Assembly (NCBI GenBank): GCA_030390025.1
Contig: CM059432.1
Coordinates: 50,346,001-50,410,000, forward strand
Reading direction: 5' to 3'
Source: Squalus acanthias
Lineage: Eukaryota
DNA: 64,000 nt
The stretch's first letter is position 1, and every line of letters starts with the position of its first letter. The notes below the pieces were generated by a model, which saw nothing but the letters and a program-made list of their open reading frames with translations, was not told the origin of the DNA and ran no database searches. Below are positions 21,416-50,433 of this stretch, one piece after another. The translations under genes were made by a program, and so were the position numbers.

Positions 21416-22693
21416 AGTAAGATTTCCAAAATTTACAGATCCACAAAACCTAAGGAAAAAGGACTTTGGAACTACCTCAGAGTGATAAAAATGCATTTGG
21501 GCCGAACATAAGGAATTTAAGACCAAAAACCAAGTTTTGGCATTTTAAAAACATGTCTGGGCCTGTAAAGGGAGAAAAGGCTGTGAAGGAAGAAGGGTTC
21601 AACCTCTGTAAAGGCAGTTTTGGGTATTGCAGTTAATTGCATTGTCTGGGGAACCGGGATGACCTCACTCAAAGCCCCAGCAAGCATTAACATTTCGACA
21701 ACAGACCCTAGGAGAAGACAGTCCCACCCAAAACAACAGGTCCCATCAAAACCGTTTACAGAACCCATTAAAGACATGCATAAAGCAAATATTCTATAGA
21801 AGTCCTAGGCCCAGTCAAGAAACCCAAAACATGAGGACAATTCAAACTCTGATTAAACAACAGATCGACAGGATGGAGCTATCCTGAAACCACTTCACAC
21901 ATTTACAAAACCAGTTAACACGCTAGTAAAGTCGTTACTGTTAACGAGGTCTTACAATGACCGGGATTTGATTTGGTTTTGATAAGGCCACTTCAATTTA
22001 GTATAATTGAAGGCCCATCAAGCAGTTCAGCAGTTACATCAGTTACAAGTTCGAGTTCTCCAGTAACAACAGTTCAAGTTCAACAAAAGGCAGTTCTGCA
22101 GTTTTGGATTTCAATTGAAAGCCTCTTCTGCAAGAAGACAGTTACAGTTCTGCAAGAAGGCAGTTCCACAGCACAGAAGAAGACAGTTTAAACAGAGGCA
22201 GAGTTCAACAGAAACAGTTCAACCAAGAAGGCCAACAGCTCCAGAAGCAGGCCGACACACAAGAAGAGACCAGAGCGACCGCCTCAGAGACCATCGGACA
22301 CCTCGTGGCAACAAGGGCCTTACGAAACTTTTTACTCAAAAGACTCTAAACCCTAACTCTCAACTGTCAAGGATTTGTTTGGTGAGCATTATCCCTGGTT
22401 CTCCAGAGTCCAACCTAGCTAGTGAAGTGGGATTGGGAGGGGTGAAGTATTCTTCTAATGTTATTTCCCTCGCTTGTACCGAAGTGTTCCCCACTTTTAG
22501 AGTGATAAGAGTGTTGTCATTTGTGTTTTACCTTTTAATAAAGATTGAAGTTCTTTCATCAAACTCAGTTGTCTGCTGCACCTTTGTATCACAACCCCCA
22601 AATAAGTCCAAGGTCTAGAACCAAGGGAGTGGGAGCGATTCGAACCGCTCAGAAGTCAGAGGTAAAGCTGACACAAAAACACCACCCCCTACA
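21416..22693 (+). mobile_element. Solo LTR A
   Basis: Ends CACCACCCCCTACA, and its 3' ~330 bp closely match LTR C (48156-49607). AATAAA at 22537. The 5' end reads AGTAAG rather than TGTAAG, and there is no clear TSD. Confidence 0.78.
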
Positions 22694-23735
22694 AATCCTT
22701 TAATCATCTTAAATACTTCAATTAGATCACCTCTTGATCTTCCATATTTAAAGGAATACAAGGCTAGTCTATTCAACCTGGTCTCATAATTTAATCCCTT
22801 TAGCCCCGGTATCATTCTGGTGAATCTGCACTGCACCCCCTCCAGGGCCAATGCTTCCTAAGGTGTGGTGCCCAGAACTGAACGCAATACTCTAAATGAG
22901 GTCTAAGCAGATATCTGTACAGCTGTAACATAACTTCCATCCTTTGTATTCCAGCCCCCTTGAGATAAAGGCTAACATTCCATCAGACTTTTTAATTATT
23001 TTTTGGACCTGTCCACTAGCTTTTAGTGATTTCTGTACTTGGACCCCTAAATCTCTCTGCTCAGCCACAGTTCCTAGCTCCTCACCATTTAGAAAATACT
23101 CTGATCTATCTTTCTTCGGTCCAAAGTGGATGCCCTCACATTTTCCCACATTGAACTCCATCTGCCACCTAACTTAGTGTTGTCAGCAAACTTAGATATA
23201 TGGCTCTCTATTCCTTCACCCAAGTCATTTATAAATAACGTGAAAATCTGTGGCCCCAATACAGATCCTTGGGGGACACCGCTAGTCACATCCTGCCAAT
23301 TGGAGTTCATATGCATTATCCCTACTCTCTGTCTTCTACCTCCTAACCAATTCTCCATCTAAACCTATAGGTTGCCTTGAATTCCATGCGCTCTCATTTT
23401 TATTAACTGTCTCTCTTATGGGAACCTTATTGAAAGCGTTCTGGAAGTCCATATAGATAACATCCATAGATACTCCCTTATCACACCTCAAAAAATTTAA
23501 CTAGGTTCGTTAGACATAACTTACCCTTTACAAATCCATGCTGGCTCTCTCTGATCAGCTCATATATGTCCAAATGTTCAGTTACCTTGTCCCTAATAAC
23601 AGATTCTAGTAACTTTCCCATAACTGACGTTAGACTAATAGGTCTTTAATTTCCTAGTCTATCTCTCTTACCCTTCTTAAATTGTGGAGTGATATTGGCA
23701 ATTTTCCAATACAAGGGGACAATTCCTGAATCGAG
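22694..23735 (-). mobile_element. CR1 RT fragment (older copy)
   Basis: [16 protein letters not shown] and RGDLIEVFKMIKGF in broken frames. Confidence 0.88.
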
Positions 23736-23739
23736 ACAT

Positions 23740-24760
23740 CCTAAGAGGTACAGTTCTTTTGCTCTTAATGCAGGCATCTCCCAGGCTGCAGTGCCTGGTC
23801 TGCTGCTGGTGGCTCTTATATACTATTGTCCTCTCTTCATCCAAGTCCATGGTAAGGCCTCTGTCCATGGCAATAAGTGCAGCATGTGGCATGCTGTTAT
23901 AATTTTGCTGACCTTCACCGGGCGTATGGACCCTCCCCCAAATGGTCCAAATATCAGAAGAATTGCTCTCGCATCCCCAAATGTCTGTTCAGTGAGTGTC
24001 CTGGTTCATCCATGTGCCATGTTGTATTTGTGCTTTTCTAGGATATATGGGTTGTGCAGTAGTGTCATCAACCATGGTTATACAATGTAGCCCATATCTT
24101 GAGCAACAAGCCATCCATCCATCCTCCTTCAAAGAGCTATAGAGATACATAGACGTTACAACACAGAAACAGGCCATTTGTGCTGGCATTCAACTTCCAC
24201 GCGAGCTATGTGATGTTTTATTAATTCAGAATTAAAACAGCATGTATGCTTCATGGGAGGTGTGCATTGATGTGTATTATTTTTCTGGCAGTGGCCACTT
24301 ACGATTTGCACGTTGGTAGAACAACAGACCTTTCTATTTAGGTATACCATAGGATTGTCAGTAGGCACACAACTGGCAACATGCATACAAGTAATGATGT
24401 CCTGTATTTGGGGAAGTGAACAGTGTGGCAAAAATATAGCTGTCTCTGCTGCTACTCTAGCTGAAGTGTATGTAGGTGGGTGTGTGATACAAAAAGCATT
24501 CAGTTTCCCCTTAACACTGTGGATGACATAGCACCTGACCCTTGTAATGCCCTCTTTGGGCATCTGTAAGGTCACTGTAACTTAAAAATTTAGGGCAGTG
24601 GAGGCCTTTATTGCCAATGGTAGTGCATAGTATGATATGGATGGGAATGGTAGGCTGTCCACAGATTAATGTGGACCAGCCGGCGCAACTCAGTCACAGC
24701 CTTTGTGCTGAGGCTCATGGCTCATTTTACCAAACCTCCCCACCCCGACCTGGCGGAAAT
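23740..24760 (-). pseudogene. Harbinger transposase remnant
   Basis: LPQIQDIITCMHVA...VYLNRKVCCSTNVQIVSGH is homologous to the peptides at 3695 and 50606. Confidence 0.75.
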
Positions 24761-25596
24761 TGGGCAGAGGAGCAGTTAAAATGGGGCAGGTCAATTGGGA
24801 TTTTAACGCCACTGTATTTCTTTTCCAGTGTGTGCTTTTTTTCCCCAGCTCTCCCCTTCATTCCTTTATAAATGCTGTTCATCGGTAATAATCTTGCAGT
24901 TTTGACCAAGGGTCTGAAACTGAAATGTAAATGTTCTCCCAGCATTTGATACCTGAACTCCTGAGTCCTTCCAGCATTCAGTATTGTGCTTTTATATATA
25001 TATTTATATATATATATAACATATACAGTATATATAGTTTTCATTTAAGAAAGGCAGAATTAGGAAGTTGTGCAACGCCTTTCACATCCTAAGGATGTCC
25101 CATAGTCCTTCACAGCCAAATGAATTTGTATATTTGTAAACATCACTAAACTATGACTCCACACTTCCTCTCCAGCCCAGCAATTTAAAAACACAATAAT
25201 CATTTCATGCCAGCTCCAGCTGCAGTAAATTAAAAAAGGAAAATTTGAATTTGAATTCAATTTGAATCTGCAGGTGCTGAATGTAAGCAACACAACACAC
25301 ACTCAATGACATGCTGTACGGCAATACGTTTATTGTAAATTCAGCTTTAGACCTGTTTAGTAAGGAGTGATCTGAAAAACTTCTCACCCAATGCTTTGCT
25401 CTACCATTTCTCCTGTCCTGCCATTACACCGAGCTTTGTTATCAACTTGGAAGTGATGTGAGTCAGCCAGCATTAATAGTACAATGGATTCCTCTCATAG
25501 TAATCTCAGTGTGTTGGGTCTAATAAGCCTTCAGCAGTAACACGGTTCAGCACCAATAAAGTCTCTGATTTTCTCAAAGAAATACTTAGGAGGAAG

Positions 25597-25786
25597 GGTA
25601 GCGCAGTGGTTATGTTACTGGTGCAGTAATCCAGAGGCCTTCACTAATAATGTCGCAGTTTAGATCCCACCATGGTAGTTTGAAAATTTGAATTTAAAAG
25701 AAATATTTAAAAGACAATCTGGAAATATAAAACTGGTATCAGTAAACATGCTCATAATGTTGTTGGAGTGTCATAAAAGCCCAGTT
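25597..25786 (+). mobile_element. tRNA-headed SINE 5' part, interrupted by the CR1 (continues about 31522-31567)
   Basis: GGTAGCGCAGTGGTTATGTTACTGG...GATCCCACCATGG matches the head at 31650. The continuation AGGGAAGGAAAGCTGCTGTCCTTACC follows the CR1 tail. Confidence 0.7.
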
Positions 25787-26135
25787 GAAAAGAGCGGCCC
25801 GAGAGTGGACCTGAATTAAAGCAGCGGCGAGAGGATAATGAGCAGCCCGAGAGTGAACCTGAATTAAAGCAGCGGCAGCGCAAGGCTCCGATTCAAAAAC
25901 AACATCAAAGAGTGGCGTCACAGGATAGCAGGTAGGTGATTGGTTGGTGAGTATTACAGCTTTTTTTGCTCTCTAAGTTAGGGAAGGGGGTTAAATTAAG
26001 AACTGAGAAACTGTAACTTGCTAGTACTTATTAAATTAATAACTTAAACAAAATAAAATAATCAAACAATAAACCTAAAATATCGATTGAATAAAATCTT
26101 TAACTAATTAATTAATAAATAAAACAAGGTTAGAG

Positions 26136-27095
26136 ATGGCAGGGCAGGTGGTGTGTTGTAACTGCAGCATGTGGGAGTCTGTGGAGAGCATCGCGATCCC
26201 GAGCAACCACATCTGCAGTAAGTGTCTGCAACTCGAGGAACTTCGGCTCAGAATTGTTGAGCTGGAGTATGAGCTGCAGACATTGTGATGCACCAGGGAG
26301 CGGGAGAGTTAGCTGGACACTTTGTTCCAGGAGGCAGTCACACCCTTTAGGTTAAGTAGTATTTTAGAGTTCGTCAGTGGTCAGGGACAGGAGGGTGTGA
26401 CTGCGAGTCAGGAAGGTATGGGGACCCAGGATGTAGTGATGGAGGAGCCTCAGCCCTGGACCTTGTCCAACAAGTATGAGGTACTTTCTACCTGTATGGA
26501 TGAGGAAAAGGACTGCAGGGAGGATGGGCAAACTGACCACGGCACTGTGGTACAGGGGGCCATCCAAGTGGGGGGAGAAGGAAGGAATGTGGTAGTAGTA
26601 GGGGACAGTATAGTCAGGGGGATAGATACTGTTCTCTGCAGCCATGAAAGAGAGTCCCAAAGGCTGTGTTACCTGCCTGGTGCCAGGGTTCAGGATATCT
26701 CATCACGGCTGGAGAAGAACTTGGAGTGGGAGGGGGAGGATCCAGTTGTCGTGGTCCATGTAGGAACCAACGACATAGGTAGAACTATGAATGAGGTTCT
26801 GCTGAGGGAGTTTGAGGAGCTAGGGTCTAAATTAATAAGCAGAACCACAAGGGTAATAATCTTTGGATTACTACCTGAGCCACGCGCAAATTGGCATAGG
26901 GTCAAGCAGATCAGAGAGTTAAATGCGTGGCTCAAAGAGTGGTGTGGGAAAATGGGGTTTCAATTCAAGGGGCACTGGCACCAGTACTGGGGAAAGAGAG
27001 AGCTGTTCCGTCGGGATGGGCTCCACTTAAACCGGGCTGGGACCAGCGTCCTGGCGAACCGAATAACTAGGGCTGTAGATAGGGCTTTAAACTAA
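26136..27095 (+). pseudogene. CR1 ORF1: zinc finger/leucine zipper plus SGNH esterase domain
   Basis: The ATG at 26136 gives CCNC...CSKC and LEELRLRIVELEYEL, followed by an internal TGA near 26286. Downstream are the SGNH blocks GDSIVRG, HVGTND and DGLHLN. Confidence 0.9.
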
Positions 27096-29189
27096 AAAAG
27101 GGGTGGAGGGGAAATTTAGAAATCTAAAGAGAAAGGTCAAGGCAATAGAGCAGTGTAGCGATTTGGATAAAAATAAGCAGAGTGTGACAGGAAGGGACAG
27201 AGAGTTTAATGGTAGCAGTGCAGCAGAAAATAAGGTCAAAGCAGGGAATAATGGTAAAAAATTTATATTAAAGGCTCTTTATCTGAATGCACGAAGCATT
27301 CGTAACAAGATAGATGAACTAGTGGCACAAATAGAGATAAATGGGTTTGATCAAATAGCCATTACAGAGACATGGTTGCAAGGTGGCCAAGGTGGGGAAC
27401 TAAATGTTCCAGGGTACTTGACATTTTGAAAAGACAGGCAGAATGGAAAAGGAGGGGGAGTAGCCCTGATAATAAAGGATGACATAAGGACAGTAGCGAG
27501 AAAGGATCTCGGCTCAGAAGATCAGGAAGTAGAATCAGTATGGGTGGAGATAAGGAATAATAAGGGGCTGAAAACATTGGTACAAGCAGTATATAGGCCC
27601 CCTAACAGTAACTATAGCGTTGGACAGAACATTAATCAAGAAATAGTAGGAGCTTGCAACAAAGGTAATGCAATAATCTTGGGGGACTTTAAATCTTCAT
27701 ATAGACAGGACAAATCAAATTGGCAAAGGTAGTCTGGAGGCCGAGTTCATGGAATGCATTCGGGACAGTTTCCTAGAACAATATGTCATGGAATCAACCA
27801 GGGAACAGGCTATTTTAGATCTTGTATTGTGTAATGAGAGAGGGTTAATTAGCAATCTCATAGTAAAGGATCCTCTGGGGCAGAGTGATCATAATATGAT
27901 AGAATTTCACATTAATTTTGAGAGTGACTTGCCTAAGTCCGAAACTGGAGTCTTAAACTTAAATAAAGCCAATTACATAGGTATGAGGGGTGAGTTGGCG
28001 AAGGCAGATTGGAAAAATAGATTAAAAGGTATGGCGGCAGGTAAGCAGTGGCTAGCATTTAAAGAAATATTTCATAATTCTCAACAAAAATACATTCCAT
28101 TGAGAAACAAAAACACCATGGGAAAAGTGATCCAACCATGGCTCACTAAAGAAGGATAGCATTAGATTGAAAGAAGAAGCTTATAATGTTGCAAAGAATA
28201 ATAGTAAGCCTGAGGATTGGGAGAGTTTCAGAAACCAGCAAAGGTTTTCCAAAAAATTGATAAAAAGGGAAAAAATAGAATGAGAGAAAACTAGCAAGAA
28301 ATATAAAAGCAGATTGTAAGAGTTTCTACAGTATGTAAAAAGGAAAAGAGTAGCAAAAGTAAACGTTGATCCCTTAGAGGCTGAGACAGGAGCAATTATT
28401 ATGGGGATTAAGGAAATGGCAGAAATGTTAAACAAATATTTTGTATCTGTCTTCACAGCAGAAGACACAAAAAGCATACCAAAAATGGTAGGGAACCAAG
28501 GGTCTAATGAGGGTGAGGAACTTAACGTAATTAATATAAGTAGAGAAAAAGTACTCGAGAAACTAATGTGTCTAAAAGCTGACAAATCCCCTGGACCTGA
28601 CGGCCTACATCCTAGGGTTCTAAAAGAGGTGCCTGAAGAGATAGTGGATGCATTGGTTTTGATCTTCCAAAATTCCCTAGATTCTGGAATGGTCCCAGCG
28701 GATTGGAAGGTCACAAATGTAACACCGCTATTCAAGAAAGGAGGGAGAGAAAAAACAGAACTACAGGCCAGTTAGCCTGACATCAGTCGTCGGGAAAATG
28801 CTGGAATCCATTCTTAAGGAAGTGGTATCACTTAGAAAATCATAACATGAATTAGGCAGAGTCAACATGGTTTTATGAAAGGGAAAGTATGTTTGACAAA
28901 TTTATTAGAGTTTTTTGAGGATGTAACTAGCAGGGTAGATAAAGGGGAACCAGTGGATGAAGCATATTTGGGTTTCCAAAAGGCATTCGATAAGGTACCA
29001 CATAAAAGGTTGTTATACAAGATAAGGGCTCATGGGGTTGGGGGTAATATAGTAGCATAGATAGAGGATTGGTTAACGGACAGAAAACAGAGAGTAGGGT
29101 TAAACGGATCTTGTTCAGGTTGGCAGGCTGTAACTAGTGGGGTGCCGCAAGGATCAGTATTGGGGCCTCAGTTATTTACAATCTATATA

Positions 29190-29830
29190 TTTTTTTTAAT
29201 TCGTTTCTGGGATGTGGGCGTTGCTGGCAAGGCCAGCATTTATTGCCCATCCCTAATTGCCCTTGAGAAGGTGGTGGTGAGCCGCCTTCTTGAACCGCTG
29301 CAGTCCGTGTGGTGAAGGTACTCCCACAGTGCTGTTAGGGAGGGAGTTCCAGGATTTTGACCCAGCGATGATGAAGGATCGGCGATATACTTCTAAGTCA
29401 GGATGGTGTGTGACTTGGAGGGGAACTTGGAGGTGGTGGTGTTCCCATGCGCCTGCTGCCATTGTCCTTCTAGGTGGAAGAGGTCACGGGTTTGTGATGT
29501 GCTGCCGAAGAAGCCTTGGCGAGTTGCTGCAGTGCATCTTGTACATGGTATACACTGCAGCCACGGTACGCCACTGGTGGAGGGAGTGAATGTTTAAGGT
29601 GGTGGATGGGGTGCCAATCAAGCGGGCTGCTTTGTCCTGGATGGAGTCGAGCTTCTTGAGTGTTGTTGGAGCTGCACTCATCCAGGCAAGTGGAGAGTAT
29701 TCCATCACACTCCTGACTTGTGCTTTGTAGATGGTGGAAAGGCTTTGGGGAGTCAGGAGGTGAGACACTCGCCACAGAATACCTAGCCTCTGACCTGCTC
29801 TTGTTGCCACAGTATTTATGTGGCTGGTCC
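29190..29830 (-). mobile_element. 3' fragment of the second LINE family nested in the CR1 RT
   Basis: YKAQVRSVMEYSPLAW...HHHLLKGN and the tail GGGCAATAAATGCTGGCC, as at 40400-40978. It splits the CR1 FTIY/INDL motif. Confidence 0.88.
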
Positions 29831-29925
29831 ATTAATGACCTAGATGAAGGGACCGAGTGTAATGTATCCAAGTTTGCTGATGATACAATGCTAGCTGGGA
29901 CAGTAAGCTGTGAGGAGAACACCTA

Positions 29926-31649: not shown

Positions 31650-32240
31650 GTGCGGTAGCATAGTGGTTATGTTACTGCACTAGTAATCCAGAGGCCTGGA
31701 TTTTTGTCACGTATTTTTTTCCTTATTCATTCACAGGATGTGGGCATCACTGGCAACCCCAGCATTTATTGCCCATCCCTAATTGCCCTTAACTGAGTGG
31801 TTTGCTAGGCCATTTCAGAAGGCTGTTAAGAGTCAACCACATTGCTGTGGGTCTGGAGTCACATATAGGCCAGACCAGGTAAGGACAGCATTAATGATCT
31901 GGGGACACAAGTTCAAATCCCACCATGGCAGCTGGGGAATTTAAATTGAGTTAATAAATAAATCGGGAATAAAAAGCTAGTATCAGTAATGGTGACCATG
32001 TAACTACTAGATTGTTGTAAAAACCCATCTGGTTCACTAATCTCCTTTAGGGAAGGAAACCTGCTGTCCTTACCTGGTCTGGCCTATATGTGACTCCAGA
32101 CCCACAGCAATGTGGTTGACTCTAAGCAGCCCTCTGAAATGGCCTAGCAAACCACTCAGTTAAGGGCAATTAGGGATGGGCAATAAATGCTGGGGTTGCC
32201 AGCGATGCCCACATCCTGTGAATGAATAAGGAAAAAAATA
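31650..32240 (+). mobile_element. tRNA-headed SINE sharing head and tail with the second LINE family; contains an inverted copy of its own 3' end
   Basis: A-box-like TAGCATAGTGG and B-box-like GTTCAAATCCC. The body matches the reverse complement of 18440-18760, and the tail matches 40905-40975. Confidence 0.82.
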
Positions 32241-32659
32241 CTTGACATCAATATGGTTGACTCCTAATAGGCTTCTGAAATGGTCCTAGCAAGCCACTTA
32301 AGAAAAAATGCAGTCGTTCAAAAGGAAAGCCCACTTTCTCGGGGCAATTTGGGCAAGAAATGCCAACCTTGCCAGTGATGCCCATATCCTGGCAATGAAT
32401 TTTTAAAAATTCACAATAATTTCAGTCACTTTCCCTAATAAAAATATTAGAAAATGAAATCTCTCAAAATATTGTCTAATGTTGGGAGATTTTGATTACT
32501 TTGACTATTTGAAAGAAGCTGAAAATACTTGTGTGATAAGAATATTGTACAAAAGTTGAGATTTTAAAAAAATGAATGGAGATACAGTGAAATTCAAAGT
32601 GAAGTGACAGCTGCTTTATTTGAATGAAAAAAGTACTATAAGGACCACTTAGCCATCAT

Positions 32660-34910: not shown

Positions 34911-37900
34911 AAACATAGAAACATAGAAGATAGGAGCAGGAGTAGGCCATTCGGCCCCTCTAGCCTGCTCCGCCATTCAATGCGATCATGGCTGATCATC
35001 CAAATTCAGAACCCTGTCCCTGCTTTCTCCCCATATCCCTTGATCCCTTTAGCCTTAAGAAATATATCCAACTCCTTCTTGAATATATTTAATGAATTGG
35101 CTTCTACTGCCTTCTGTGGTAGAGAATTCCACAGGTCCACCACTCTCTGGGTGAAGAAATTCCTCCTCATTTCTGTCCTAAATGGCTTACCCCTTATCCT
35201 TAGACTGTGACCCCTGGTTCTGGACTCCCCGACCATCGGGAACATCCTTCCTGCATCTAGTCTGTCCAGTCCTGTCAGAATTTTATAAGTTTCAATGAGA
35301 TCCCCTCTCATTCTTCTAAACTCAATCGACCCAATCTCTCCTCATATGTCATTCCTGCCATCCCAGGTATCAGCCTGGTGAATCTTCGCTGAACTCCTTC
35401 CATGGCAAGAACCTCCTTCCTCAGATATGGCGACCAAAACTGCACACAATACTTATGATGTGGTCTCACCAAGGCCCTGTACAACTGCAGCAAGAAATCC
35501 TTATTCCTGTACTCAAACCCTCTCGCTACAAATGCCAACATACCATTTGCCTTCTTAACTGCCTGCTGCACCTGCATACTTACCTTCAGCAACTGGTGCA
35601 CAAGGACACCCAGGTCTCGTTGCACTTCCCCTTCTCCCAATCTATTGCCATTCAGATAATAATCTGCCTTCCTGTTTTTGACACTAAAGTGGATAACCTC
35701 GCATTTATCCACGTTATATTGCATCTGCCATGCTTCTGCCCAATCACCCAACCTGTCCAAATCATACTGGAGTTTCTCGGCATCCTCCTCACGGCACACA
35801 CGCCCACCCAGCTTTGTGTCGTCTGCAAACTTGGAGATATTACATCTAGTTCCCTTGTCTAGATCATTAATATATATTGTGAATAGCTGGGGTCCAAGGA
35901 CCGATCCCTGCAGTACCCCACTAGTCACTGCCTGCCACTCGGAAAAAGACCCGTTTATTCCAACTCTTTGCTTTCTGTCTGCCAACCAGTTCTCTATCCA
36001 AGTCAATACCTTGCCCCCAATCCCATGTGCCTTAACTTTATACGCTAATCTCTTATGCAGGACCTTATCGAAAGCCTTTTGAAAGTCCAAATACACCACA
36101 TCCACTGGTTCTCCCTTATCTATTTTACCAGTTACATCCTCAAAAAATTCCAGTAGATTAGTCAAGCACGATTTACCTTTTGTAAATCCATGTTGACTTT
36201 GTCCAATCCTGTCACTGTTTTCCAAGTGCTCTGCTATTACATCTTTTATAATGGACTCTAGCATTTTCCCCACTACCGATGTCTGTAATGTCCCGTTTTC
36301 TCTCTACCACCTTTTTTGAATAGTGGGGGTAACATTAGCTACCCTCCAATCCATGGGTATTGTTCCAGATTCCATCAAATGTTGGAAGATGATCAGCAAT
36401 GCATCTACTATTTCTAGGGCCACTTCCTTAAGTACCCTAGGATGTAGATTATCAGGCCCTGGGGATTTATCGGCCTTCAATCCCGTTAATTTCCCTAACA
36501 CCATTTCCCTACAAATACTGATTTCTTTCAGATCCTCCCTTTCATCAGACCCTATGTTCCCCAACATCTCTGGGAGGTTAATTGTGTCCTCCTTTGTGAA
36601 GACAGAACCAAAATATGTATTTAATTGCTCTGCCATTTCTTTGTTCCCCATTATAAATTCCCCTGATTCTGACTGCAAGGGACTGTAGAATTCGCAATAT
36701 ATCGCGATTTTATAAATAAGGAGAAAAACACATAGTTTCGTTCAAACAGCTTTTATTTCAGCAGAATGCTGTCAGGTTTTCAAAGTGGACACAAGCAGCT
36801 TGTAAAATGGCCGCCACGCCTCGTGGCAGAACATTCTAGACTTTTCGACAGGCAGACAAGATGGCGTTCCAATAAACATTTGTGCAAGATCGATTAAGAC
36901 TAAGCACATTTAAGATAATACACGAGACATCATGGGTTTGCAGTATACACATAAATACTGAAATTGGTCTCCCAGGTGCGAATAAGGGCTATTGTACCAA
37001 GTAATCAAGAACCCATCCAAAGACATTAATATGCAAAATCCCAACGACTCTACGATGAGAGAGCCGTTAGCGGGTAGTTACAGAGAACATGTGGGAGCCC
37101 CAAAACCCCTCCAGGGAGAACACCGACCGATTAAACAATGGGAGAAATATTAACAGGTACTCAGACAGTAACGAGTATCCCCGAAACCCATTTAAAAACG
37201 GAGATCACCCTAACAAAAGAAAAGACATTAAGGTTGGGCGGGAAAAGGAAGAATTTTGCACTATAACTGCAAGCTCCAACCGTCCATCTCTCTCTTATCC
37301 TCTTATTCGGTTGACTCTTATCCTGCTGGCGTTTATCCTCGTGGCTGCTCTTGACTCGACGTCTTGTTCCTGCTTGCCTCGTGTCTCTTTTAAAAGACTG
37401 TTGAACTTTACGAACTGCCCGGATCGGCCTCGTGGCTTGCCGCGAAGATCTGTGTGGAACTGGGCTGTGAAGCCTTGAAACGGGCGCACCATCCCGATAA
37501 GTCGGTAAACGGTGTTGGAACCGAAGGCCCGAGATGAGATGAGATGAGATGAGATGAGATGAGATGAGAAGAGAAGAAGACCATACGTATCGCCACGGTC
37601 AGTAAGCTCCGACCGCGCCTGTAGGTCGAATAGACACTTTCCTTGCCCAGGAAGACCATCTTTGAATTTTACAGAACAGCCAGGAAGACTATTCTTCGAA
37701 TTTTATCGCATCAGTGCGAGGGCACAGGAAGACTCTTTTTTGAGTAGAGTCGGAACTCCGAGGACAACACAGATCTTCATGACAGCAGACGTTCCAGCCT
37801 GCTAGCCGGAGCAGAAACGAGTAAACAAGTGGGGCACAGAGACCCCTGACCAACACGTGGGTGATCAGGTGCTGTGGTGGAAAAACATCCGATCAGAGTT

Positions 37901-39726
37901 TTCGGAATTCTCCGAGTTATCACGAGTGGTGAGCATGAGTCTCGATCCTACAAGTCTAGTTTAGAGTAGGTATTGATAGGGAAGGGTTTAAGTTTTAAGG
38001 ATAATTGTAATGTGTGCCCCCATTTACGATGTGTCGTTCGTTCCTTGTTTCCCTGAAATTAGTTACATAACTGCGTGTAAGATTGTACTGTCATTAATCT
38101 GTGCTTATGACATGTATTTTGTAATCTTGAATAATATGCAATAAAGATTTTCCATTTCGTACCATTCAACCGGGTCTACCTGAGTTTTCTCTCCATTACT
38201 GCTCTCGCATCTAAGTCCAGTGTCAGAACCGTAAGGGCGAGTGGGTCGAACCACTCACAGGTGTCTAGTGCTCCCAGACTGGCTGGAGACCAGAACAGGC
38301 AACAAGGCCTAAACTCGCACTAGCATCCAGGCTGCACAGAGCCACACGAATCCCACAGGTTCAGAGAAACCCTTACAGGACCTACGCTTGACTTCACCAA
38401 TCTTTTTCTCTTCACATATCTATAAAAGCTTTTACAGTCAGTTTTTATGTTCCCTGAAAGCTTCCTCTCATATTCTATTTTCCCCTTCTTAATTAATCCC
38501 TTTGTCCTCCTTTGTTGAATCCTAAACTGCTCCCAATCCTCAGGTTTACTGCTTTTTCTGGCCAATTTATATGTCCTCTCCTTGGATCTTATGCTATCCC
38601 TAATTTCCCTTGTTAGCCACGGTTGAGTCACCTTTTTTGTTTTATTCTTATGCCAAACTGGGATGAACAAATTCTGTAGTTCGTCCATGCGGTCTTTGAA
38701 TGTTTGCCATTGCCTATCCACCGTCAACCCTTTGAGTGACATTCCCCAATCAATCCTACCCAACTCGCGCCTCATACCATTGTCGTTTCCTTTATTTAAA
38801 TTCAGGACCCTAGTCTCTGAGTCAACTACTTCACTCTCCATCTTAATGAAGAATTCTATCATATTATGATCGCTCCTCCCCAAGGGGCTTCGTACAACAA
38901 GATTGCTAATTAATCCTTTCTCATTACATAATACCCAGTCTAAGATGGCCTGATCTCTGGCTGGTCCCTCGACATATTGGTCCAGGAAACCATCCCGTAA
39001 ACACTCCAGGAATTCCTCCTCCACAGTATTGTTACTAATTTGGTTAGCCCAATCTATATGTAGATTAAAGTCACCCATGAAGACTGCTGTGCCCTTATTA
39101 CACGCTTCTCTAATTTCCCTTTTAATGCCATCCCCAACCTCCGCATTACTGTTTGGAGGTCTATATACCACTCCCACTAATGTTTTCAGCCCCTTGGTAT
39201 TTCTCAGTTCTAAACATACAGATTCCACATCATCAGAGCTAATATCCTTCCTTACAATTGTGTTAATCCCCTCTTTAACCAGCAATGCTACCCCACCTCC
39301 CTTTCCTTTTTGGCTATCTTTCCTGAATATTGAATACCCCTGGATGTTGAGTTCCCAGCCTTGGTCACCCTGGAGCCATGTTTCCATAATCCCAATCAAA
39401 TCATATTCGTTTACCCCTATTTGCGCAGCTAATTCATCCACCTTGTTCCGAATGCTCCTCGCATTAAGACACAAAGCCTTCAGGCTTGTTTTTTTAACGC
39501 TCTTAGACCTATTAGAATTATTATTTACTGTGACTATGTTTGATTTAAACCGTTGATTTCTCTGACTGCCACTTTTGTTTTTCTCCTTCCTATCTTTTGC
39601 TTTTATCCTTGTTTCCCTTTCCTCTGTCTCCCTGCTCAGGTTCCCAACTCCCTGCCATTTTAGTTTAAACCCACCCCCAGAGCACTAGCAAACACTCCCC
39701 CTAGGACATCGGTCCTGGCCCTGCCC
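34911..39726 (-). mobile_element. CR1 LINE with almost complete ORF2, split by solo LTR B
   Basis: EN ORF 38320-39474, RT ORFs 36304-36678 and 35308-36273, C-terminus 35006-35311, and an (AACATAGA) tail at 34911. Confidence 0.95.
36684..38377 (+). mobile_element. Solo LTR B (1694 bp)
   Basis: TGTAG...TTACA termini with a 4-bp TSD GGAC (36680-83 and 38378-81). Removing it restores the CR1 sequence. AATAAA at 38140; internal (GAGAT)n at about 37531-37568. Confidence 0.88.
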
Positions 39727-39874
39727 ATCATGCCCGTTTCGCGCACAGAATGAGCAAGTCATCATTTTGAATTGAGCAATCAAAACTAGTCAAAGATACC
39801 ACTCTGGCCCCGATTAATGTTGTATGGTACCTACCTTTTGTACGAGATGATCTCCGCCACAGCCAGAAACAGAT

Positions 39875-42385: not shown

Positions 42386-43123
42386 AATGAGTTTACTAAT
42401 GGAATTACAGTAAAAAGAAAAGAAAATATAAATATAGTCCCTACGTATCAGTCTATATTTGTGTTACTGTCTAGTAAGATGTATAGGAAAGCATCAAACA
42501 AGAAAAGGGTCATTTGGCCCATTATGCCACTCCTTCCACAGACCATGTGTAATATACCCAACCATGAAATCGATCTCACATATTTAAGGCTAGAATTGCT
42601 ATCAGCGATGTTACCGTATGAAAGCTTAATATGTTAACCCATTTATATTATCCATGCCTGTCAGTATTTTAAAGACTTGGATTGTGTCCCCTCAATTGAC
42701 TTTTCTCCAGCGAAAGCAAGTCCATTTCTCAAAACTTTGAGTCCTATGTCTTGGAATATTCCCTTTCACTCCTGAATCTGTTCTTAAGAAATAAAATGCC
42801 CAAAACAGCACACAATACTCCAAATATAGCCTCATCACTAGTCTATACAAAGTTAGAATAGGTTGAAGAAATTTTCAATTGCCGGCCATCTGTTTCTTGT
42901 ACATTCACAGCAGGTCTGTTTGCATCTGTAAAAAGACAAGTTATGATGTTTTGGGTGTGTACCATTTTTGGCTTCAAGGTAGATCCTAGTATTTGATGGT
43001 TCTGTCAATAACAGGTTTGTTGACCAAAGCTTCACTTTGACAGTAAAGTTTCTGTGATTTATATTAGATTCGGTCTGTGATACTCAGAGACCAGAAGAAG
43101 CCTTGTTCCAAAGTATATATGAT

Positions 43124-43254
43124 AGCAAAATACTGCGGATGCTGGAAATCTGAAATAACAACAGAAAACGCTGGAAAAACTCAGCAGGCCAGGCAGCATC
43201 CGTGGAGAGAGAAAGAGAGTTAACGTTTCAGGTCGATGACCTTTCGTCAGAACT
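43124..43254 (-). mobile_element. Penelope-like element terminal fragment
   Basis: Near-identical to 58513-58646 and to the reverse complement of 13779-13917. Confidence 0.72.
43218..43254 (-). ncRNA. Minimal type I hammerhead ribozyme motif
   Basis: Minus strand AGUU-CUGACGA-A-AGGUC(AUC)GACCU-GAAAC-GUU/AACU: intact core, 5-bp helix II, 4-bp helix I and palindromic AACGUU helix III. Confidence 0.72.
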
Positions 43255-43628
43255 GTGAAGAGCCGGAAATCAAATTGCCTTGAGCATGTCCAGTTCTGTT
43301 CCAAGAATGTTCTAATAATCTAGGCTATACGTCTTCCTTAAATACATTAAAAATTCCTTATTCCTAACTATCCTTGTTCCCCTGAAAAGCCTCCCATCAA
43401 TCACGGTCTTTGTCTTAGCCTAACAGCAATCTTTTCTACGACCTCATCCGAGATAACATCCAATACCTGACTCTCCAAGCCTCCCTTAAAACTATCCTAT
43501 AAAACATAAGAAAACAAGAATGAATGGATGCCTCCTTACTCAAAATGCTCCAAGGACAGGCTTGACTAGACCAAGTTTCAATCTTTAGCTGCCTAATTAT
43601 TAATGGTACAATGTTTATATAGAAAGTC

Positions 43629-43687
43629 TTATTCTAAAATGGAAGCTTTATTCTAAAACGGAAGCTTTATTCCAAAATGGAAGTCTT
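43629..43687. repeat. About 19-bp tandem repeat, three copies
   Basis: TTATTCTAAAATGGAAGCT unit repeated with 1-2 mismatches. Confidence 0.7.
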
Positions 43688-43989
43688 CAAAAGTACTTCT
43701 CTTACACTTTCAGTTAATAATTAATAATCATATTCTATTTTATTTCCCTCTCCAGCGTTGCTAATATCTTCTGTTCCAATATACATTACTTTCATTTATC
43801 CTCATTAAATTCCATCTGCCATTCCTTAGCACATCTATTAATTGATTCAAGTCTCTTTGAATGCTGCTCATCTCTCTTATAATTGTCACTTGGCAACATA
43901 GCTTCATGTCATAAACAGATTTTATAATATTACGTAAGACTCTGCTTCTCCAAAGCATTTAGCCAGAGTGTAAACACTGGGGGGCTGCA

Positions 43990-46450
43990 GGGGGTCCAGA
44001 GAAATTCTTTACAGAATAGCACTAGAGTAAGAATGTTAGGTGGGATCAGACTAAGAGAGAATACAAGAAGGTCTAAGATAGGTTTACAGTGCATGTGTGT
44101 AAACACATGAAGTGTGGTAAATAAGGTTGGTGAGCTATAGGCACAAATAGCCACATGGGAATATGATGTCGTAGCGATAACGGAGACCTGGCTCAAAAAA
44201 GGCAGGATTGAGTACTAAATATTCCTGGATATAAGGTGTTCAAGAAAGATAGGGAAGGAAAGAAAGGAGGTGGGTGGCAGTCTTGATTAAGGAGAATATT
44301 ACAGTGCTGGAGAGAGAGGATGTCCTGGAGGGGTCAAGGACAGAATCTATTTGGTTAGAATTAAGAAACAACAGAGGTGCCATTACACTACTAGGTGTAT
44401 CCTATAGGCTACCAAATTGTGGGAAAGATATAGAGAAGCAAATTTGCAGGGAAATTACAGAAAGGTGTAAGAACTATAGAGTAGTGATAATGGGGGACTT
44501 CAATTATCCTAATACAGACTGGGATAGTAATAGTGTACAGGACAGAGAGGGGGAAGAATTTCTGAAGTGTGTTCAGGAGAACTTTATGATCAGTATATTT
44601 CCGGCCCAACGAGGAAGGAGGCATTGCTGGATCTGGTTCTGGGGAATGAGGTGGGTCAAGTGGAACAAGTGTCAGTAGGGGAACATTGAGGGAACAGTAG
44701 TCATAGTATCATAAGGTTTAGATTAGCTATGAAAAAGGATAAGGAGCAATCTAACTGGAGGAGGGCCAATTTCAGTGGGTTGAGAACGGATCTGGCCTGA
44801 GTAAATTGGAATCAAAGGTTGGCAGGCAAAACTTTATTCGAACAATGAGTTGCCTTTAAAGAGGAGATGGTACGGGTATAGTCGAGGTACATTCCCTCGA
44901 GGGGGAAAGGTAGGGCAACCAAAGCCAGAGCTCCCTGGATTATGAAAGAGATAAAGGTGGAAATTGAGGAGGTACTCGCCATAATCTTCCAATCCTCCTT
45001 AGATATGGGGAGTGGTGCCAGAAGACTGGAGAATTGCAAATGTTACACCCTTGTTCAAAAAAGGGTGTAAGGATAACCTAGCTACTACAGGCCAGTCAGT
45101 TTAACCTGGGTGGTGGGGAAGCTTTTAGAAACGATATTCCGGGACAAAATTAACAGTCACTTGGACAAGTGTGGATTAATTAAGGAAAGCCAGCACGGAT
45201 TTGTTAAAGGCAAATCATGTTTAACCAACTTGATCGAGTTTTTTGATGAGGTAACAGGGAGGGCAATGCGGTTGACGTGATGTACATAGACTTCCAAAAG
45301 GCGTTTGATAAAGTGTCACATAATAGGTTTGCCAGCAAAGTTGAAGCCCTTGGAATAAAGGGGACAGTGGCAGCATGGATACAGAATTGGCTAAGTGACA
45401 GGAAACAGAGAGTAGTGATGAATGGTTGTTTTTCGGACTGGAGGAAGGTATACAGTGGTGTTCCCCAAGGGTCGGTACTAGGACCACTGCTTTTCTTGAT
45501 ATATATTAATGACTTGGACTTGGGTGTACAGGGCACAATTTCAAAATTTGCAGATGACACAAAACTTGGAAGTATAGTGAACAGTGAGGAGGATAGTGAT
45601 AGACTTCAAGAGGACATGGACAGGCTGGTGGAATAGGCGGATACGTGGAAAATGAAATTTTACGCAGAAAAGTGCGAAGTGATACATTTTGGTCGGAAGA
45701 ATGAGGAGCCGTAATATAAACTAAAGGGTACAATTCTAAAGGGGTGCAGGAACAGAGAGACCTGGGGGTATATGTGCACAAATCGTTGAAGATGGCAGGG
45801 AAGGTTGAGAAAGCAGTTAAAAAAGCATATGGGGTCCTGGACTTCATAAATAGAGGCATAGAGTACAAAAGCAAGGAAGTTATGATGAACCTTTATAACT
45901 GGTTCGGCCTCAACTGGACTATTGTGTCTAATTCTGGGCACCATACCTTAGGAATGATTGAAGGCCTTAGAGAGGGTGCAGAAAAGATTTACAAGAATGT
46001 TTCCAGGGATGAGGGACTTCAGTTACGTGGATAGACTGGAGAAGCTAGGGCTGTTCTCCTTAGAGCAGAGAAGGTTGAGAGGAGATTTGATAGAGGTGTT
46101 CAAAATCATGAGGGGTCTGGACAGAGTAGATAGAGATAAACTGTTCCCATTGGCGGAAGGGTCGAGAACCAGAGGATACAGATTTAAGGTGATTGGCAGA
46201 AGAACGAAAGGTGACATGAGGAAAAAACATTTTATGCAGCGTTATGATCTGGAATGCACTGCCTGAAAGGGTGGTGGAGGCAGACTCAATCGTGGTTTTC
46301 AAAAGGGAATTGGATAAGTACCTGAAGGAAAAAAATTTGCACGGGGAAAGGGCAGGGGAGTGGGACTAGCTGAAATGCTCGTGCAAAGAGCCGGCATGGG
46401 CTCGACAGGCCGAATGGCCTCCTTCTGTGCTGTAACCATTCTATGTTATT
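43990..46450 (+). mobile_element. CR1 ORF2 remnant (EN, internal deletion, RT, 3' UTR)
   Basis: [31 protein letters not shown] and RGDLIEVFK, with many stops. Confidence 0.92.
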
Positions 46451-48109
46451 GCCCCTCCCCCCTTAACAGACAAGTATTTTCTTGATCAGCCCCTATGTGT
46501 TCTACTGCCAAGCCAATTTTCAATTCGGCCAAATCTTAAATTCTTGCTGTATAAATTTCCTTACATTTTTGCAACATTTGTGCATAGAGAACATTTTTGC
46601 TCCTAATTCTTTTAGTTCCTTTATACCACATGTTGAACTGATATATTTCTGTTAATATTATATTGTATATTTCTGAGCCAAAATGGATCAGGGATTAGAC
46701 CACAGTCTTCATTTGTGAAGACTGATATGGGTCTCTTTATCATTTCTGCAAATTCCTGTAATTATAATATCTTCCTCAATTCCTCAATGGGACTATGATT
46801 TTTGATGCACTGCAGTTTAATATCGCAGGGCTGATTTTTATTTCCCAGTGTAGAACGAGTGGAAGTTCGGCCTGGTGCGATTAGCAACCATCTCCTGGAC
46901 TTGGCCACATTTCCAGAATCCGCATAAATTGAAATAATATGGAGAAGCTGAAGGTGTGAAAAGCGCCTGAGATTGGTAACCCATCCATTAAGAGGTGGGA
47001 AATTCATGAGCTGCTTCAGGTCTTAAAGGACTGCAGCACCTTAAAGGGCATTACACTTTTGCTGCTGGAGGAGAAGAAATGAATGTCTGGAACTGAATGA
47101 TGTCGCAAGCAATCAAGGGAGTAGTAGGGTGCCCAGGTTTCCCGATGGGGCAGTGGATGTCTTGGTAAACCAAGTTCATCAAGAGAAAGTTCATTTTGTT
47201 TCTCATGGATGGGTGCCATGTCCCACAGTACACTGAAGAACAGCATAGTTGGCAGGACTTTGCCAACCATGTTAATGTTAGCAGCATGTACCCCAGGACG
47301 TGGCTGCATTGCTGAAAGCAATTCAATGACCTCACCAGATGAGCTAAGCTCGGACACCCCAGTTGCATCTCTCATTGTTTCAAGTGTGCAGATCATGACC
47401 ATATCCTCATCTCCTTCCAATCTATCTGGATCCTTAGAAGCTCTTTCTGCTTATCTTCACACTCTGAAAACTATTTTTCCAAATATCTTTCTCAGTCCCT
47501 GCAAATATTTCCCCTCCACGCCACAAGAAACAACTACTCCACAGTTGTCACAGACTATTCATCTGATCTCTGTGAAAAATAATAGCTGGCATGGACCTGT
47601 TGGACTGAATGGCCTGTTTCAGTGCTTTAAATACTATGTAATAAATGTAGGTGGAAAAATAAGTTAACATTTCATTTCCATTGTTGTCCAGAGAGGGTTA
47701 CTGTAATGGCGTTGCAGATTGGAATCTGAGGTCAGATGAATCGTCTGTGGCAATTGTAGAGTAATTGTTTCTTGTGGTGTGGAAGGTGTGTATTTGCAGG
47801 GATTGAGGAAGATAGTTGGCAAGACTGTTAATGCGGGGGGCATCAGACGGTCATTACATTATGGAGTTAGTAAACAGATGAAGCTGAAAGCTCTGGAGGC
47901 TGTTTGATGTTTCACCAGAGCAGCCTTCTCAGGAGCCTCCATATCATATGTGTCTCCCCCTTCAATAGGCGCAAGGCCCTTCACCCCTGGTAGTTCCAAT
48001 TGCAGTCCTAATTGCAAGGCAAAGCTGGGCAGCATATTGCAAAGCATGAGGATATGATTGGGCTGTATTGGAGGAAGCCCCACAGACCTGTTGAGGCATT
48101 GGAATCGTT

Positions 48110-50433
48110 GGGCTGGATTTTACCAGCCGTGAGGAGGCGGGTTTGGAGGCGGGACTGTAAGCTTCGCAAAATTCCCCAGAAACTCGTATAGAACCCTAAA
48201 AGGGGTGATTTTTGGATTTTTCCTACGAATTTGGGATGATGGGACATAAGTGAAGTGATTTGAGGTAAACCCTCAGTTTTGGACATTTTAAAGATCAGGG
48301 AAGAAAAACCTTGAGGAAAAATGACTTTTGAAAATGACTGGGAAAAAAAAAACCTTTGTGAAGGAGTGTGGCGAGGCAGTGGACAGCTTTTGGAGTCAAG
48401 CTGTCTGGAATTTGTTTCCACTGCAATCCAGGCAGGAGGAAGAACCTCACCCAAAACCTCACAACAGATCCAAAATTGAATAATTCAAGACACCTTTTGC
48501 ATATCCCAGGATGCCAGAAGCCTGTAAACAATAAAACATCTAGTACAGCCATTACTTCATCAAAAACCAATCAGCCAGGTATCTATAGGGACAAGATTTG
48601 GCGCGTAGATAAAGGCCCTGCCTAAATGGGAGACATCGGAAGCCATCAGGACAATTTAACACCAAGTTAAAACCAACAAAACTTAACAAGCCCGCAAAAC
48701 TAAGACAATGGAATGAACAGACCTCAACTGAAAACTAAATCACTTCAACACGAAACCAATTTAAGAAAGGGGTTTTGGCGCGAAAAAGACATAAGGGTCT
48801 GAACAGTATAATTGAGGGCCTAATCCCCCAAGAAACTCTCTCTCAGCTCTGTTCCAGTTGCAGCAAGTTCCAGCAAGACACTACCAGCCACACAACACGA
48901 GCAGGAGGAGGAGAGAAGCAGCAAGGCCACGAGGCAGACCCGGGGTGAGATCGGAGGCAAGGACAGACTAGGCCAGGCAAGGGCTAGAGCTGAGGCCACT
49001 GGGAGCGAGTCGGCATTGCTCAGCACACGGTCTAGCACTAGCAGCCACTAGCCAAGGTCACTGGAGGCTGGGAGCAAGTCGGCATCGCTCAACCCACGGT
49101 CCAGCCCCAGAAGGTACCGCCCCGACAGGCCTCCAACGCAACAAAACTCGACGACCAGACCACCATCGCAGATTTCACAGACCGGTACCACGTGGGGACG
49201 GCAGGCCCCAAAGGACAAAAAGAGAGTACCTCAAAATCGCAGTCAACTTACCTGGCTGGATTTCGCACTGTCAAAACCCCTGTTTGGTGAGCATTATCCC
49301 TGAACTCCTGAAACCAAAACCTAGCTAGATAGTGGGATTTTTGGGAGGGATAAGGGTTTTTGTATCTTGTCATTCTCCCTCGCCTGTACCGTGTGTTCTC
49401 CAACCTGTTTAAGTGTTAAGTGTGTTTTAAGTTTGTTACCTTTTCTTTTAATAAAAGTCAAAATTCTTTCATCGGAACCTGTTGTCTACTGCATCTTTGT
49501 TCACAACCCCCAAATAAGTCCAAGGTCCAGAACCAGGGGCGTGGGAGCGATTCGAACCGCTCGCTGAGTCAGAGGTGAGGCTGACCCCTACCACACCACC
49601 CCCTACAGGACTGCTGGGAAAATGGGAAAAATTGGGAGCGAGTCCCAACCCCGCTCCCAACCCACCTCCGAACCATCTTCCCGGGAGGCGAGTCCCCGAC
49701 TCGCGCAGGGACCCGTCTCCTAGCGGCGGGAAGGGGAATTAGAGCCAATTAACTGCCTGTTAACAGGTAGTTAACAGGCAGTTAAGAGGCTTTTCCCCAT
49801 TTTCCGCCTGCTGATGCGGCCTTCCCGACGTCGGGAAACCCCGCCAGGGTCAGCGAGGCGAGCTGTGGGTTTGCTGTAGTGTAAGTGTGTAAATGACAGC
49901 TGCAGAGATAGTGTGATGGGTGCAATGGTGCACAGGTAAGTATGACAGGTGAGAGAATGTAGTGAGAAATATTTTTATTCTGTTTATATGTATCTGCAGG
50001 TGACAAGATTTGATGTTTCTGTGAAGCCTCATCTGATCGGCAGAATTGACAGATGGCTTTTGCAATCTCATATGCAGCTGCCATCTGTTTTCTCCTAAGG
50101 AGAGAGTCATTGGTGAGCCTGAGTGCAAGGGCTCTCCTTTGGACAGTGATTGTCAGTGTTTGACAGCACCTCAATGCTGTCAAACACTGTCAAATCATCT
50201 GTCAAAAGATTATGGGGCCTGTCACTTGAACAAAACTGGCAGATGAAGCGTCATGCACTGAAGTCATCTGACACCGGCTTTCCCTTAATTGGCCGGCAAG
50301 CCCACAGGGCGGGCTTAACAAGGCCAATCAGGGGAAAATAGCGTCAGGTCGTCAGATGTCACTGGGGGCGGGACTAGAACCCGGAAACCAGCAGTCCCGC
50401 CCCCAACACGCCTCCTCAGGTAATATCCAGCCC
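48110..50433. mobile_element. Harbinger-type MITE containing solo LTR C
   Basis: TIRs GGGCTGGATTTTACC / GGTAATATCCAGCCC with flanks GTT and ATT (imperfect 3-bp TSD). Confidence 0.82.
48156..49607 (+). mobile_element. Solo LTR C (1452 bp)
   Basis: TGTAA...CTACA termini, TSD GGAC (48152-55 and 49608-11), AATAAA at 49450; homologous to LTR A. Confidence 0.9.

What the first reader, a model, noticed from the sequence alone, without database searches (positions are those of the whole stretch)
21416..49607. Three long, diverged solo LTRs share a 3' architecture ending in a covarying T-arm/B-box-like hairpin
Seen: LTRs A (21416-22693), B (36684-38377) and C (48156-49607) differ greatly over most of their length. 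All three keep the same ordered motifs: GGTGAGCAT (22381, 37928, 49286); AATAAA 155-215 bp later (22537, 38140, 49450); TAAGTCCA..GTC.AGAACC; then a hairpin. The hairpin is GAGCG-ATTCGAAC-CGCTC in A (22633-50) and C (49545-62) but GAGTG-GGTCGAAC-CACTC in B (38239-56), a compensatory C:G to T:A change around a fixed TCGAA loop. A and C add a second hairpin, GTCAG-N8-CTGAC, with different loops. Known: TTCGAA is the tRNA T-loop/Pol III B-box; foamy viruses have long LTRs, 4-bp TSDs and a splice donor upstream of the poly(A) signal. Inference: the U5 hairpin is a selected RNA structure or TFIIIC site of a possibly undescribed LTR retroelement/ERV lineage. The foamy-like affinity is only a hypothesis.
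Basis: partly seen in the sequence, partly recalled or inferred. Interest (0 to 1): 0.72.

Follow-up and report, generated by a model that had tools for sequence, protein, structure and literature searches.

The report
Shark retrovirus LTR primer-site fold
These three repeats are leftover ends (LTRs) of a young, very abundant endogenous retrovirus group in what is likely a shark or ray genome, and their shared tail motifs likely persist because they fold the viral RNA around its tRNA primer site, much as in HIV and bird retroviruses.

Summary
Observation confirmed; interpretation half right. A, B and C are solo LTRs of one endogenous retrovirus clade (about 19,000 U5-motif matches genome-wide). 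Paired-LTR relatives carry gag-TGA-pol-env and a primer site exactly complementary to the host's tRNA-Arg(TCG). It is not foamy: RT looks snakehead-retrovirus-like (hand count), yet Env looks like an F-type fusion protein (weak support). CCA-NN-GTC pairs with the primer-site edge and leader, and covaries across six lineages (cognate pairing best of 720). GAACY is conserved, predicted unpaired and complementary to the primer's T-arm. G-U pairs favour an RNA-strand structure. A TFIIIC site is not excluded (exact B-box on the minus strand), but there is no A-box and the loop register is not a T-arm. Most likely a retroviral PBS-segment with a primer-activation-like site: a known kind, in an apparently undescribed elasmobranch lineage. 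tRNA docking is inferred, not shown.

The parts
21416..22693 (+). Solo LTR A (1278 bp); 5' end AGTA, 3-bp flanking duplication; older subfamily
   Evidence: (best other copies 93-97% identical)
36684..38377 (+). Solo LTR B (1694 bp), TGTA...TACA, 4-bp TSD, inserted in a CR1-like repeat
48156..49607 (+). Solo LTR C (1452 bp), TGTA...TACA, 4-bp TSD, inserted in a CR1-like repeat
22002..22006 (+). TATA-like box of A (B: 37262-37266; C: 48807-48811); implies a long R region of about 530-870 nt (inferred)
   Evidence: start site not mapped
22381..22389 (+). Splice-donor/U1-site-like GGTGAGCAT in A (B: 37928-37936; C: 49286-49294)
   Evidence: also in lineage D and as GGTAAGCAT in lineage G; use not shown
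22537..22542 (+). Poly(A) signal of A (B: 38140-38145; C: 49450-49455)
22608..22615 (+). 5' arm of U5-leader helix P1 in A (CCA-NN-GTC); its partner lies at the primer-site 3' edge and leader of full elements
38217..38224 (+). 5' arm of helix P1 in B
49520..49527 (+). 5' arm of helix P1 in C
22618..22622 (+). GAACY linker in A (B: 38226-38230; C: 49530-49534): predicted single-stranded, complementary to tRNA T-arm GGUUC
22624..22690 (+). Predicted helix P2 in A: purine-rich 22624-22632 with the U5 end 22682-22690, enclosing both hairpins
22633..22650 (+). Hairpin 1 of A, 5-bp stem, 8-nt loop NNTCGAAC
38239..38256 (+). Hairpin 1 of B
49545..49562 (+). Hairpin 1 of C
22655..22672 (+). Hairpin 2 of A (C: 49568-49585); loop 7-10 nt across copies; a different stem sequence in lineage G

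Best explanation
A, B and C are solo LTRs of one endogenous retrovirus clade primed by host tRNA-Arg(TCG), and their shared U5 motifs likely are the 5' half of a folded primer-binding-site RNA domain that is predicted to help the primer tRNA dock and start reverse transcription. Shown: relatives with paired LTRs have the primer site 3-5 nt after the LTR, then gag-TGA-pol-env. Shown by covariation and folding: U5 pairs over a long range with the primer-site edge and leader (P1 and outer helices); a purine-rich strand pairs with the U5 end (P2) and encloses one or two hairpins. Inferred: once the tRNA's last 18 nt bind the primer site, its freed T-arm strand (GGUUCGA, nt 52-58) pairs with the exposed GAACY linker beside P1, and perhaps first with the TCGAACC hairpin loop, like the HIV-1 primer activation signal or the avian U5-T-loop contact. 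Inferred: the donor-like motif in R binds U1 and helps silence the 5' poly(A) signal. The motifs are kept by selection during element replication; in solo LTRs they are likely inert and decay at CpGs.
For: The primer site equals the reverse complement of the last 18 nt of the genome's own tRNA-Arg(TCG) plus CCA. In 104 of 106 LTR-primer-site junctions (2 dropped: U5 interrupted by other DNA) from six lineages, the cognate U5-arm/leader duplex averages -27 to -41 kcal/mol; the cognate assignment ranks 1 of 720 pairings, and P1 columns swap among G-C, A-U, U-A and C-G. RNAalifold on 12 A/C/H junctions recovers P1, outer helices, P2 and hairpin 1; 8 of 47 pairs have two-sided changes. One locus has a matched 1-nt deletion on both arms (L053). 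The plus-strand duplex is more stable than the minus-strand one in 9 of 10 groups, with more G-U pairs in 8 of 10. GAACY is exact in 102 of 104 junctions, unpaired with probability 0.61-0.94 against segment means of 0.38-0.48, and pairs with the free tRNA strand in 10 of 10 representatives (-5.8 to -13.0 kcal/mol). Hairpin stems GAGCG/CGCTC, GAGTG/CACTC, GGGCG/CGTCC and GGTG/CACC surround a fixed TCGAAC; the two loop bases that vary match tRNA nt 59-60, already taken by the primer site. Precedent: passages of PMC11181671, PMC1865047, PMC3185550.
Against: No experiment, and no RNA data. All lineages use the same tRNA and GGUUC is near-universal in tRNAs (recalled), so linker-tRNA covariation could not be tested; a 5-7 bp match may be a protein site instead. 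Hairpin 1 is missing in lineages E and F (0 of 3 loci) and in 1 of 2 D loci. Whole-domain fold z-scores are modest (-0.7 to -2.6), and U5 alone folds as well or better on the minus strand in 5 of 10 representatives. Only about six independent lineages; D-H have 1-3 loci each; no phylogeny-aware covariation statistic. The GAACY anchor windows were set by hand per group. In HIV-1 the signal is masked by pairing (PMC1865047), here it is predicted open.
Confidence: 0.68

Rival explanations
1. The fold is real, but hairpin 1 and GAACY serve packaging or dimerisation (self-complementary UUCGAA loop as a kissing site) or bind Gag or a host protein, not the tRNA.
For: Loop is exposed (0.73-1.00 unpaired) and holds a 6-nt palindrome in A, C, H, B1, D and G.
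Against: B2/B3 change the loop to GGTCGAAC (19 of 19 copies with the hairpin), which shortens the palindrome to 4 nt but keeps all 7 matches to tRNA nt 52-58.
Confidence: 0.15
2. The loop is a DNA B-box bound by TFIIIC on the minus strand, acting as an insulator or antisense Pol III element in thousands of LTRs.
For: Exact GTTCGANNC on the minus strand of A, B and C; 4,528 exact copies of the A/C version; the bases that vary are the B-box NN positions.
Against: No exact A-box; 1-mismatch hits occur in 30% of random stretches. Does not explain stem covariation, the G-U stem of lineage G, or P1. Absent in E and F. Inserted copies decay freely at the CpG.
Confidence: 0.1
3. Hairpin 1 is incidental: shared by descent next to the constrained att and primer sites, its apparent compensation produced by CpG decay on both strands.
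Against: A non-CpG A-U to G-C swap occurs in D and G (5 of 20 rows); the flanks have diverged while loop and pairing persist.
Confidence: 0.07

Closest known systems
Snakehead retrovirus (SnRV) and SnRV-like class III ERVs, including elephant-shark CmiERV lineage I (PMC4422223)
   Same: RT closest by hand count against the RT alignment in the supplement of PMC7947760 (62 of 110 columns); in-frame gag-pol stop (SnRV listed as readthrough in PMC13517186); large provirus; SnRV-like ERVs are known in cartilaginous fish.
   Different: LTRs 1.3-1.7 kb; stop context TGA-CTAG rather than UAG-GGC; Env tail about 28 aa against 136; no ORF of 120 aa or more between env and the 3' LTR; Env has F-like features (SnRV Env not compared).
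HIV-1 PBS-segment with primer activation signal; avian sarcoma virus U5-T-loop interaction
   Same: U5-leader stem enclosing U5 hairpin(s) and the primer site; a U5 motif complementary to the primer's T-arm 5' of the primer site.
   Different: Two candidate sites (linker and loop); predicted exposed rather than masked; targets tRNA nt 52-58; untested.
Lokiretroviruses (PMC7947760)
   Same: Dual RNase H; furin-type site, fusion peptide, long helix and membrane anchor in an F-like Env.
   Different: RT has LPQGF/QYVDDLL, not the Loki CPFGY or LPFGY type; 45 of 110 columns match Loki-Lch; Loki was found in 0 of 3 chondrichthyan genomes.
Foamy viruses
   Same: Long LTR, 4-bp TSD, donor-like site upstream of the poly(A) signal.
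   Different: Primer tRNA, gag-pol arrangement, Gag knuckle, RT (48 of 110 with FFV), no accessory ORF block.

Membership tests
Retroviridae (ERV) | Paired LTRs, 18-nt tRNA primer site, polypurine tract, gag-pro-pol-env, dual RNase H, short TSD | tested here: met
   TSD 4 bp in 10 of 15 distinct flank pairs, 3 bp in 2, 5 bp in 1, none in 2
Foamy viruses | tRNA-Lys1,2 primer (recalled) | tested here: not met
   primer site matches tRNA-Arg(TCG)
Foamy viruses | Pol made separately from Gag; Gag without Cys-His box (recalled) | tested here: not met
   pol follows gag in frame after one TGA in 4 of 4 B proviruses; zf-CCHC hit E 0.0036, below Pfam cut-off
Foamy viruses | RT groups with spumaviruses; tas/bet region after env | tested here: not met
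   hand count FFV 48 vs SnRV 62 of 110; PDB best hits are gammaretroviral RT 243 bits, foamy 218; no long ORF after env; no foamy row in my tree
SnRV-like clade (class III, clade Huo) | RT groups with SnRV | tested here: inconclusive
   closest of four references counted by hand (SnRV 62, FFV 48, WDSV 48, Loki-Lch 45 of 110); my tree has no SnRV row; it places the clade outside the gamma/epsilon-like and gypsy groups, beside frog and coelacanth Pols
SnRV-like clade (class III, clade Huo) | Gag-Pol by stop-codon readthrough | tested here: met
   arrangement met (PMC13517186); readthrough itself not measured
SnRV-like clade (class III, clade Huo) | SnRV's long Env tail and accessory ORFs | tested here: not met
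   against PMC12193657 passages; these are features of SnRV itself, not shown to define the clade
Lokiretroviruses | RT in the Loki clade | tested here: not met
   motif and hand-count comparison with supplement rows; no formal tree with Loki rows
Lokiretroviruses | Env similar to Mononegavirales F protein | tested here: inconclusive
   Atlas feature hits 0.92-0.94 to Baculo_F, Fusion_gly and Gypsy-env clusters; Fusion_gly E 0.076 in 1 of 16 rows; Baculo_F E 0.0011 in 1 of 16 relatives; no PDB hit; folds failed
Retroviral PBS-segment / primer activation signal | U5-leader stem enclosing the primer site | tested here: met
   (computational)
Retroviral PBS-segment / primer activation signal | U5 motif pairs with the primer T-arm and promotes initiation | not testable with these tools
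   complementarity only; the contact is pseudoknotted, so cofolding cannot show it
tRNA T-arm mimic / tRNA-derived element | 5-bp stem with 7-nt loop closed by G53-C61, within a tRNA-like fold | tested here: not met
   8-nt loop with shifted register (sequence); 0 hits
Type 2 Pol III promoter / TFIIIC site | B-box | tested here: met
   minus strand only, (consensus recalled)
Type 2 Pol III promoter / TFIIIC site | A-box 30-60 nt upstream | tested here: not met
   the real tRNA gene passes the same test
Described Dfam/Repbase family | Match to a named LTR entry | not testable with these tools

The most novel reading that the evidence does not exclude
A young, widespread elasmobranch lineage of true (SnRV-side) retroviruses carries a Mononegavirales-type F envelope, thought to be the mark of lokiretroviruses, and docks its primer through two exposed anti-T-arm sites (linker and hairpin loop) held in a covarying junction, giving thousands of natural variants of a primer-activation element.
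Probability: 0.3. Interest if true: 0.7.

Novelty: new variant of a known kind. Interest (0 to 1): 0.45.

Why it matters
Primer-activation contacts are argued mostly from HIV-1 and avian virus mutants and remain contested. A deep fish lineage with a covarying U5-leader stem and a conserved, exposed anti-T-arm motif would show the design is ancient and offers natural variants to probe. If the F-type Env holds, that envelope class is not confined to lokiretroviruses, which bears on where retroviral Env came from. The clade is also a major recent invader of this genome (at least 19,000 LTR-motif matches, LTR pairs 0.06-0.58% diverged). If the B-box reading held instead, it would have seeded thousands of TFIIIC sites.

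Tried and rejected
Apparent C-family LTR pairs 7.9 and 14 kb apart are repeat units holding one solo LTR with identical flanks, not proviruses; the same for an A pair 3.9 kb apart. Target preference for GGAC: rejected, other copies have varied TSDs. Loki membership, my first guess from Env and 'NYNRIN-like' hit names: rejected after reading Loki RT rows. A D-armless tRNA-like fold on the minus strand: not favoured. Cofolding with the tRNA gave 0.00 for the linker contact because the contact is pseudoknotted; uninformative. Both Env structure predictions were too poor to search (pLDDT 36 and 34). Sequencing runs: no RNA holder listed; contigs gave no start, poly(A) site or splice. A search for long Gag-Pol relatives returned no SnRV record. 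5 of 20 internal stretches held no relative of the element. The careful tree did not finish; the quick tree was used. Earlier scan findings: none by sequence or words. Hart 1996 (PMC190236) and Beerens 2002 (PMC1370257) are not held, so SnRV's primer tRNA and LTR structure were not seen.
Full report
1. Observation. Every motif is at the stated place. B and C are bounded by TGTA...TACA with 4-bp duplications and split CR1-like repeats; A has a changed first base and a 3-bp duplication. Outside the last 310-450 bp the three align at or little above shuffled level; A and C share 82% over the tail. ARAGORN and Rfam find nothing in the window.

2. What the elements are. The window lies in a 3.7-Gb genome. 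Each LTR has many relatives (40 best shown; 3,420, 1,742 and 4,506 first-look candidates for C, B, A). A U5 pattern that leaves out the hairpin matches 19,083 times against 136 for its control. B relatives occur as pairs mostly 10.6-11.1 kb apart. Four such elements have 4-bp TSDs, LTR pairs 0.06-0.58% diverged, a purine tract before the 3' LTR, and gag, one in-frame TGA (context TGA-CTAG, read in two of them), pol and env, with breaks in some copies. Pol has protease, RT (YVDD), tether, RNase H and integrase; Gag a weak CCHC hit. After the 5' LTR come 3-5 nt and an 18-nt site that is the exact complement of the genome's own tRNA-Arg(TCG) end. A 14-nt core of that site occurs 3,495 times, of which 426 are tRNA-like. 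A- and C-type LTRs use the same site. Env relatives with names come from six shark and skate genera and two frogs, so the host is likely an elasmobranch (inference).

3. Lineage. I took 86 of the first 100 listed primer-site matches (contig C1), 32 A/C-type loci and the B elements: 106 distinct junctions, of which 2 were dropped. They fall into ten groups in six lineages (A/C/H, B, D, E, F, G). In 15 of 20 internal stretches, RT, RNase H, integrase or Env match the B proteins (full-length RT 79-99%). A quick tree (69 rows, SH-aLRT only, midpoint root, no rows left out) joins all 12 own rows and one unnamed protein at 100, outside the gamma/epsilon-like and gypsy groups, unresolved beside frog, coelacanth and turtle Pols. 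It holds no named SnRV, foamy or Loki row. Counting by hand three RT blocks (110 columns) against the supplement of PMC7947760 gave SnRV 62, FFV 48, WDSV 48, Loki-Lch 45. So SnRV-like is the best label, unproven by tree. Env has a furin-type site, fusion-peptide-like stretch, long helix and membrane anchor; features point to F-type fusogens, but profile evidence is below cut-off and folds failed.

4. The RNA fold. NN changes in step on both sides, and D, E, F and G have different but paired arms. Cognate arm/leader duplexes beat swapped ones: rank 1 of 720 lineage pairings; best in 8 of 10 rows at group level, the two misses being neighbouring B groups. RNAalifold on 12 A/C/H junctions gives outer helices, P1, P2 and hairpin 1. 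P2 pairs a purine-rich strand with the U5 end in 10 of 10 representatives. The plus strand wins in 9 of 10 groups. Hairpin 1 on 20 rows: 96% paired, two-sided changes at 3 of 5 pairs, sliding controls 22-53% (the tool warns that its shuffles ignore relatedness, and the number of pairs with two-sided change was reached by 98 of 500 shuffles). In 30 loci chosen without the hairpin (several are duplicates), 21 have a perfect A/C or B stem and the rest one-sided changes or a deletion, as expected of decay after insertion.

5. Mechanism. The primer site takes tRNA nt 59-76 and leaves GGUUCGA free. Between P1 and P2 all six lineages keep GAACY (102 of 104 exact), predicted unpaired and complementary to GGUUC; in lineage E the match runs 11 pairs. 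The loop repeats the full complement TCGAACC, and only the two bases facing nt 59-60 vary. I infer a primer-activation-like contact (about 0.68 with the fold; the fold alone about 0.9). Because TTCGAA is self-complementary, the same letters also read as T-loop, as a minus-strand B-box and as a kissing loop; B2/B3's GG variant keeps tRNA complementarity and the B-box but shortens the palindrome, and there is no A-box. The donor-like motif lies in a long inferred R region; a G-to-A variant in lineage G keeps a donor consensus (consensus and U1 role recalled).

6. Literature seen. PMC7947760: text parts 1-2 of 4, passages, and supplement rows and parts 67-68 of 70 (cut when stored). PMC4422223: part 1 of 2. 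Passages only: PMC11181671, PMC1865047, PMC3185550, PMC12193657, PMC13517186, PMC4977317, PMC11089739, PMC8922424, PMC10435555, PMC12440569, bioRxiv 2023.10.26.564294 and 2024.03.17.585361 (bioRxiv supplements closed; the second may hold SnRV or fish Env data). PMC9040795: term search with no hits. SnRV-like ERVs in cartilaginous fish are known. Searches listed no paper on this clade's U5 structure or on an F-type Env in an SnRV-like ERV; subscription papers, Dfam and Repbase were not searchable.

7. Verdict. New variant of a known kind; interest 0.45, lifted by the clean long-range covariation and the possible F-type Env.

Noticed in passing
L022:1507-4056 (env of a B-type element); relatives P0123, P0124, P0143-P0177: Env has F-type fusogen features although RT is SnRV-like; relatives occur in six elasmobranch genera and two frogs. 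A weak Ig-like hint lies in the N-terminal part (below significance).
   Followed up: partly
L022:3069-3566 and the matching place in L023, L025, L028: A 166-codon open alternative frame overlaps env in 4 of 4 B elements; no Pfam hit. May only reflect their near identity.
   Followed up: no
L201, L203, L208; LTR pairs 6.5-6.8 kb apart on C1 and C3: Three lineages have elements that keep env but lack most of pol, suggesting repeated non-autonomous forms.
   Followed up: no
L001-L004, L006, L007, L013-L015, L017, L018: One C-type solo LTR with the same 3' flank recurs in 11 loci on several contigs: it has been amplified inside a larger repeat unit.
   Followed up: partly
L021:3690-3696: Gag-pol junction TGA-CTAG, the readthrough context known from alphaviruses and cellular genes (recalled), unlike the contexts listed for fish retroviruses in PMC13517186.
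   Followed up: partly
G000:C26:38.99-42.2 Mb (L060-L062): Long tandem arrays of a 1.62-kb unit holding intron-bearing tRNA-Arg(TCG) and tRNA-Ser(GCT) genes; 426 matches in all: an abundant supply of the primer tRNA.
   Followed up: no
L195, L199: A- or C-type 5' ends followed by B-type env or pol at 99-100% identity: nested insertion or recombination between lineages.
   Followed up: no
window 36680-36683 and 48152-48155: B and C both have the TSD GGAC; other copies do not, so likely chance.
   Followed up: yes
window 19107-20486, 35308-36303, 38320-39684, 62006-63113: Long CR1-like RT and endonuclease frames; the window is mostly nested LINE fragments, with a 171-nt spaced 191-bp inverted repeat at 31700-32252.
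   Followed up: no
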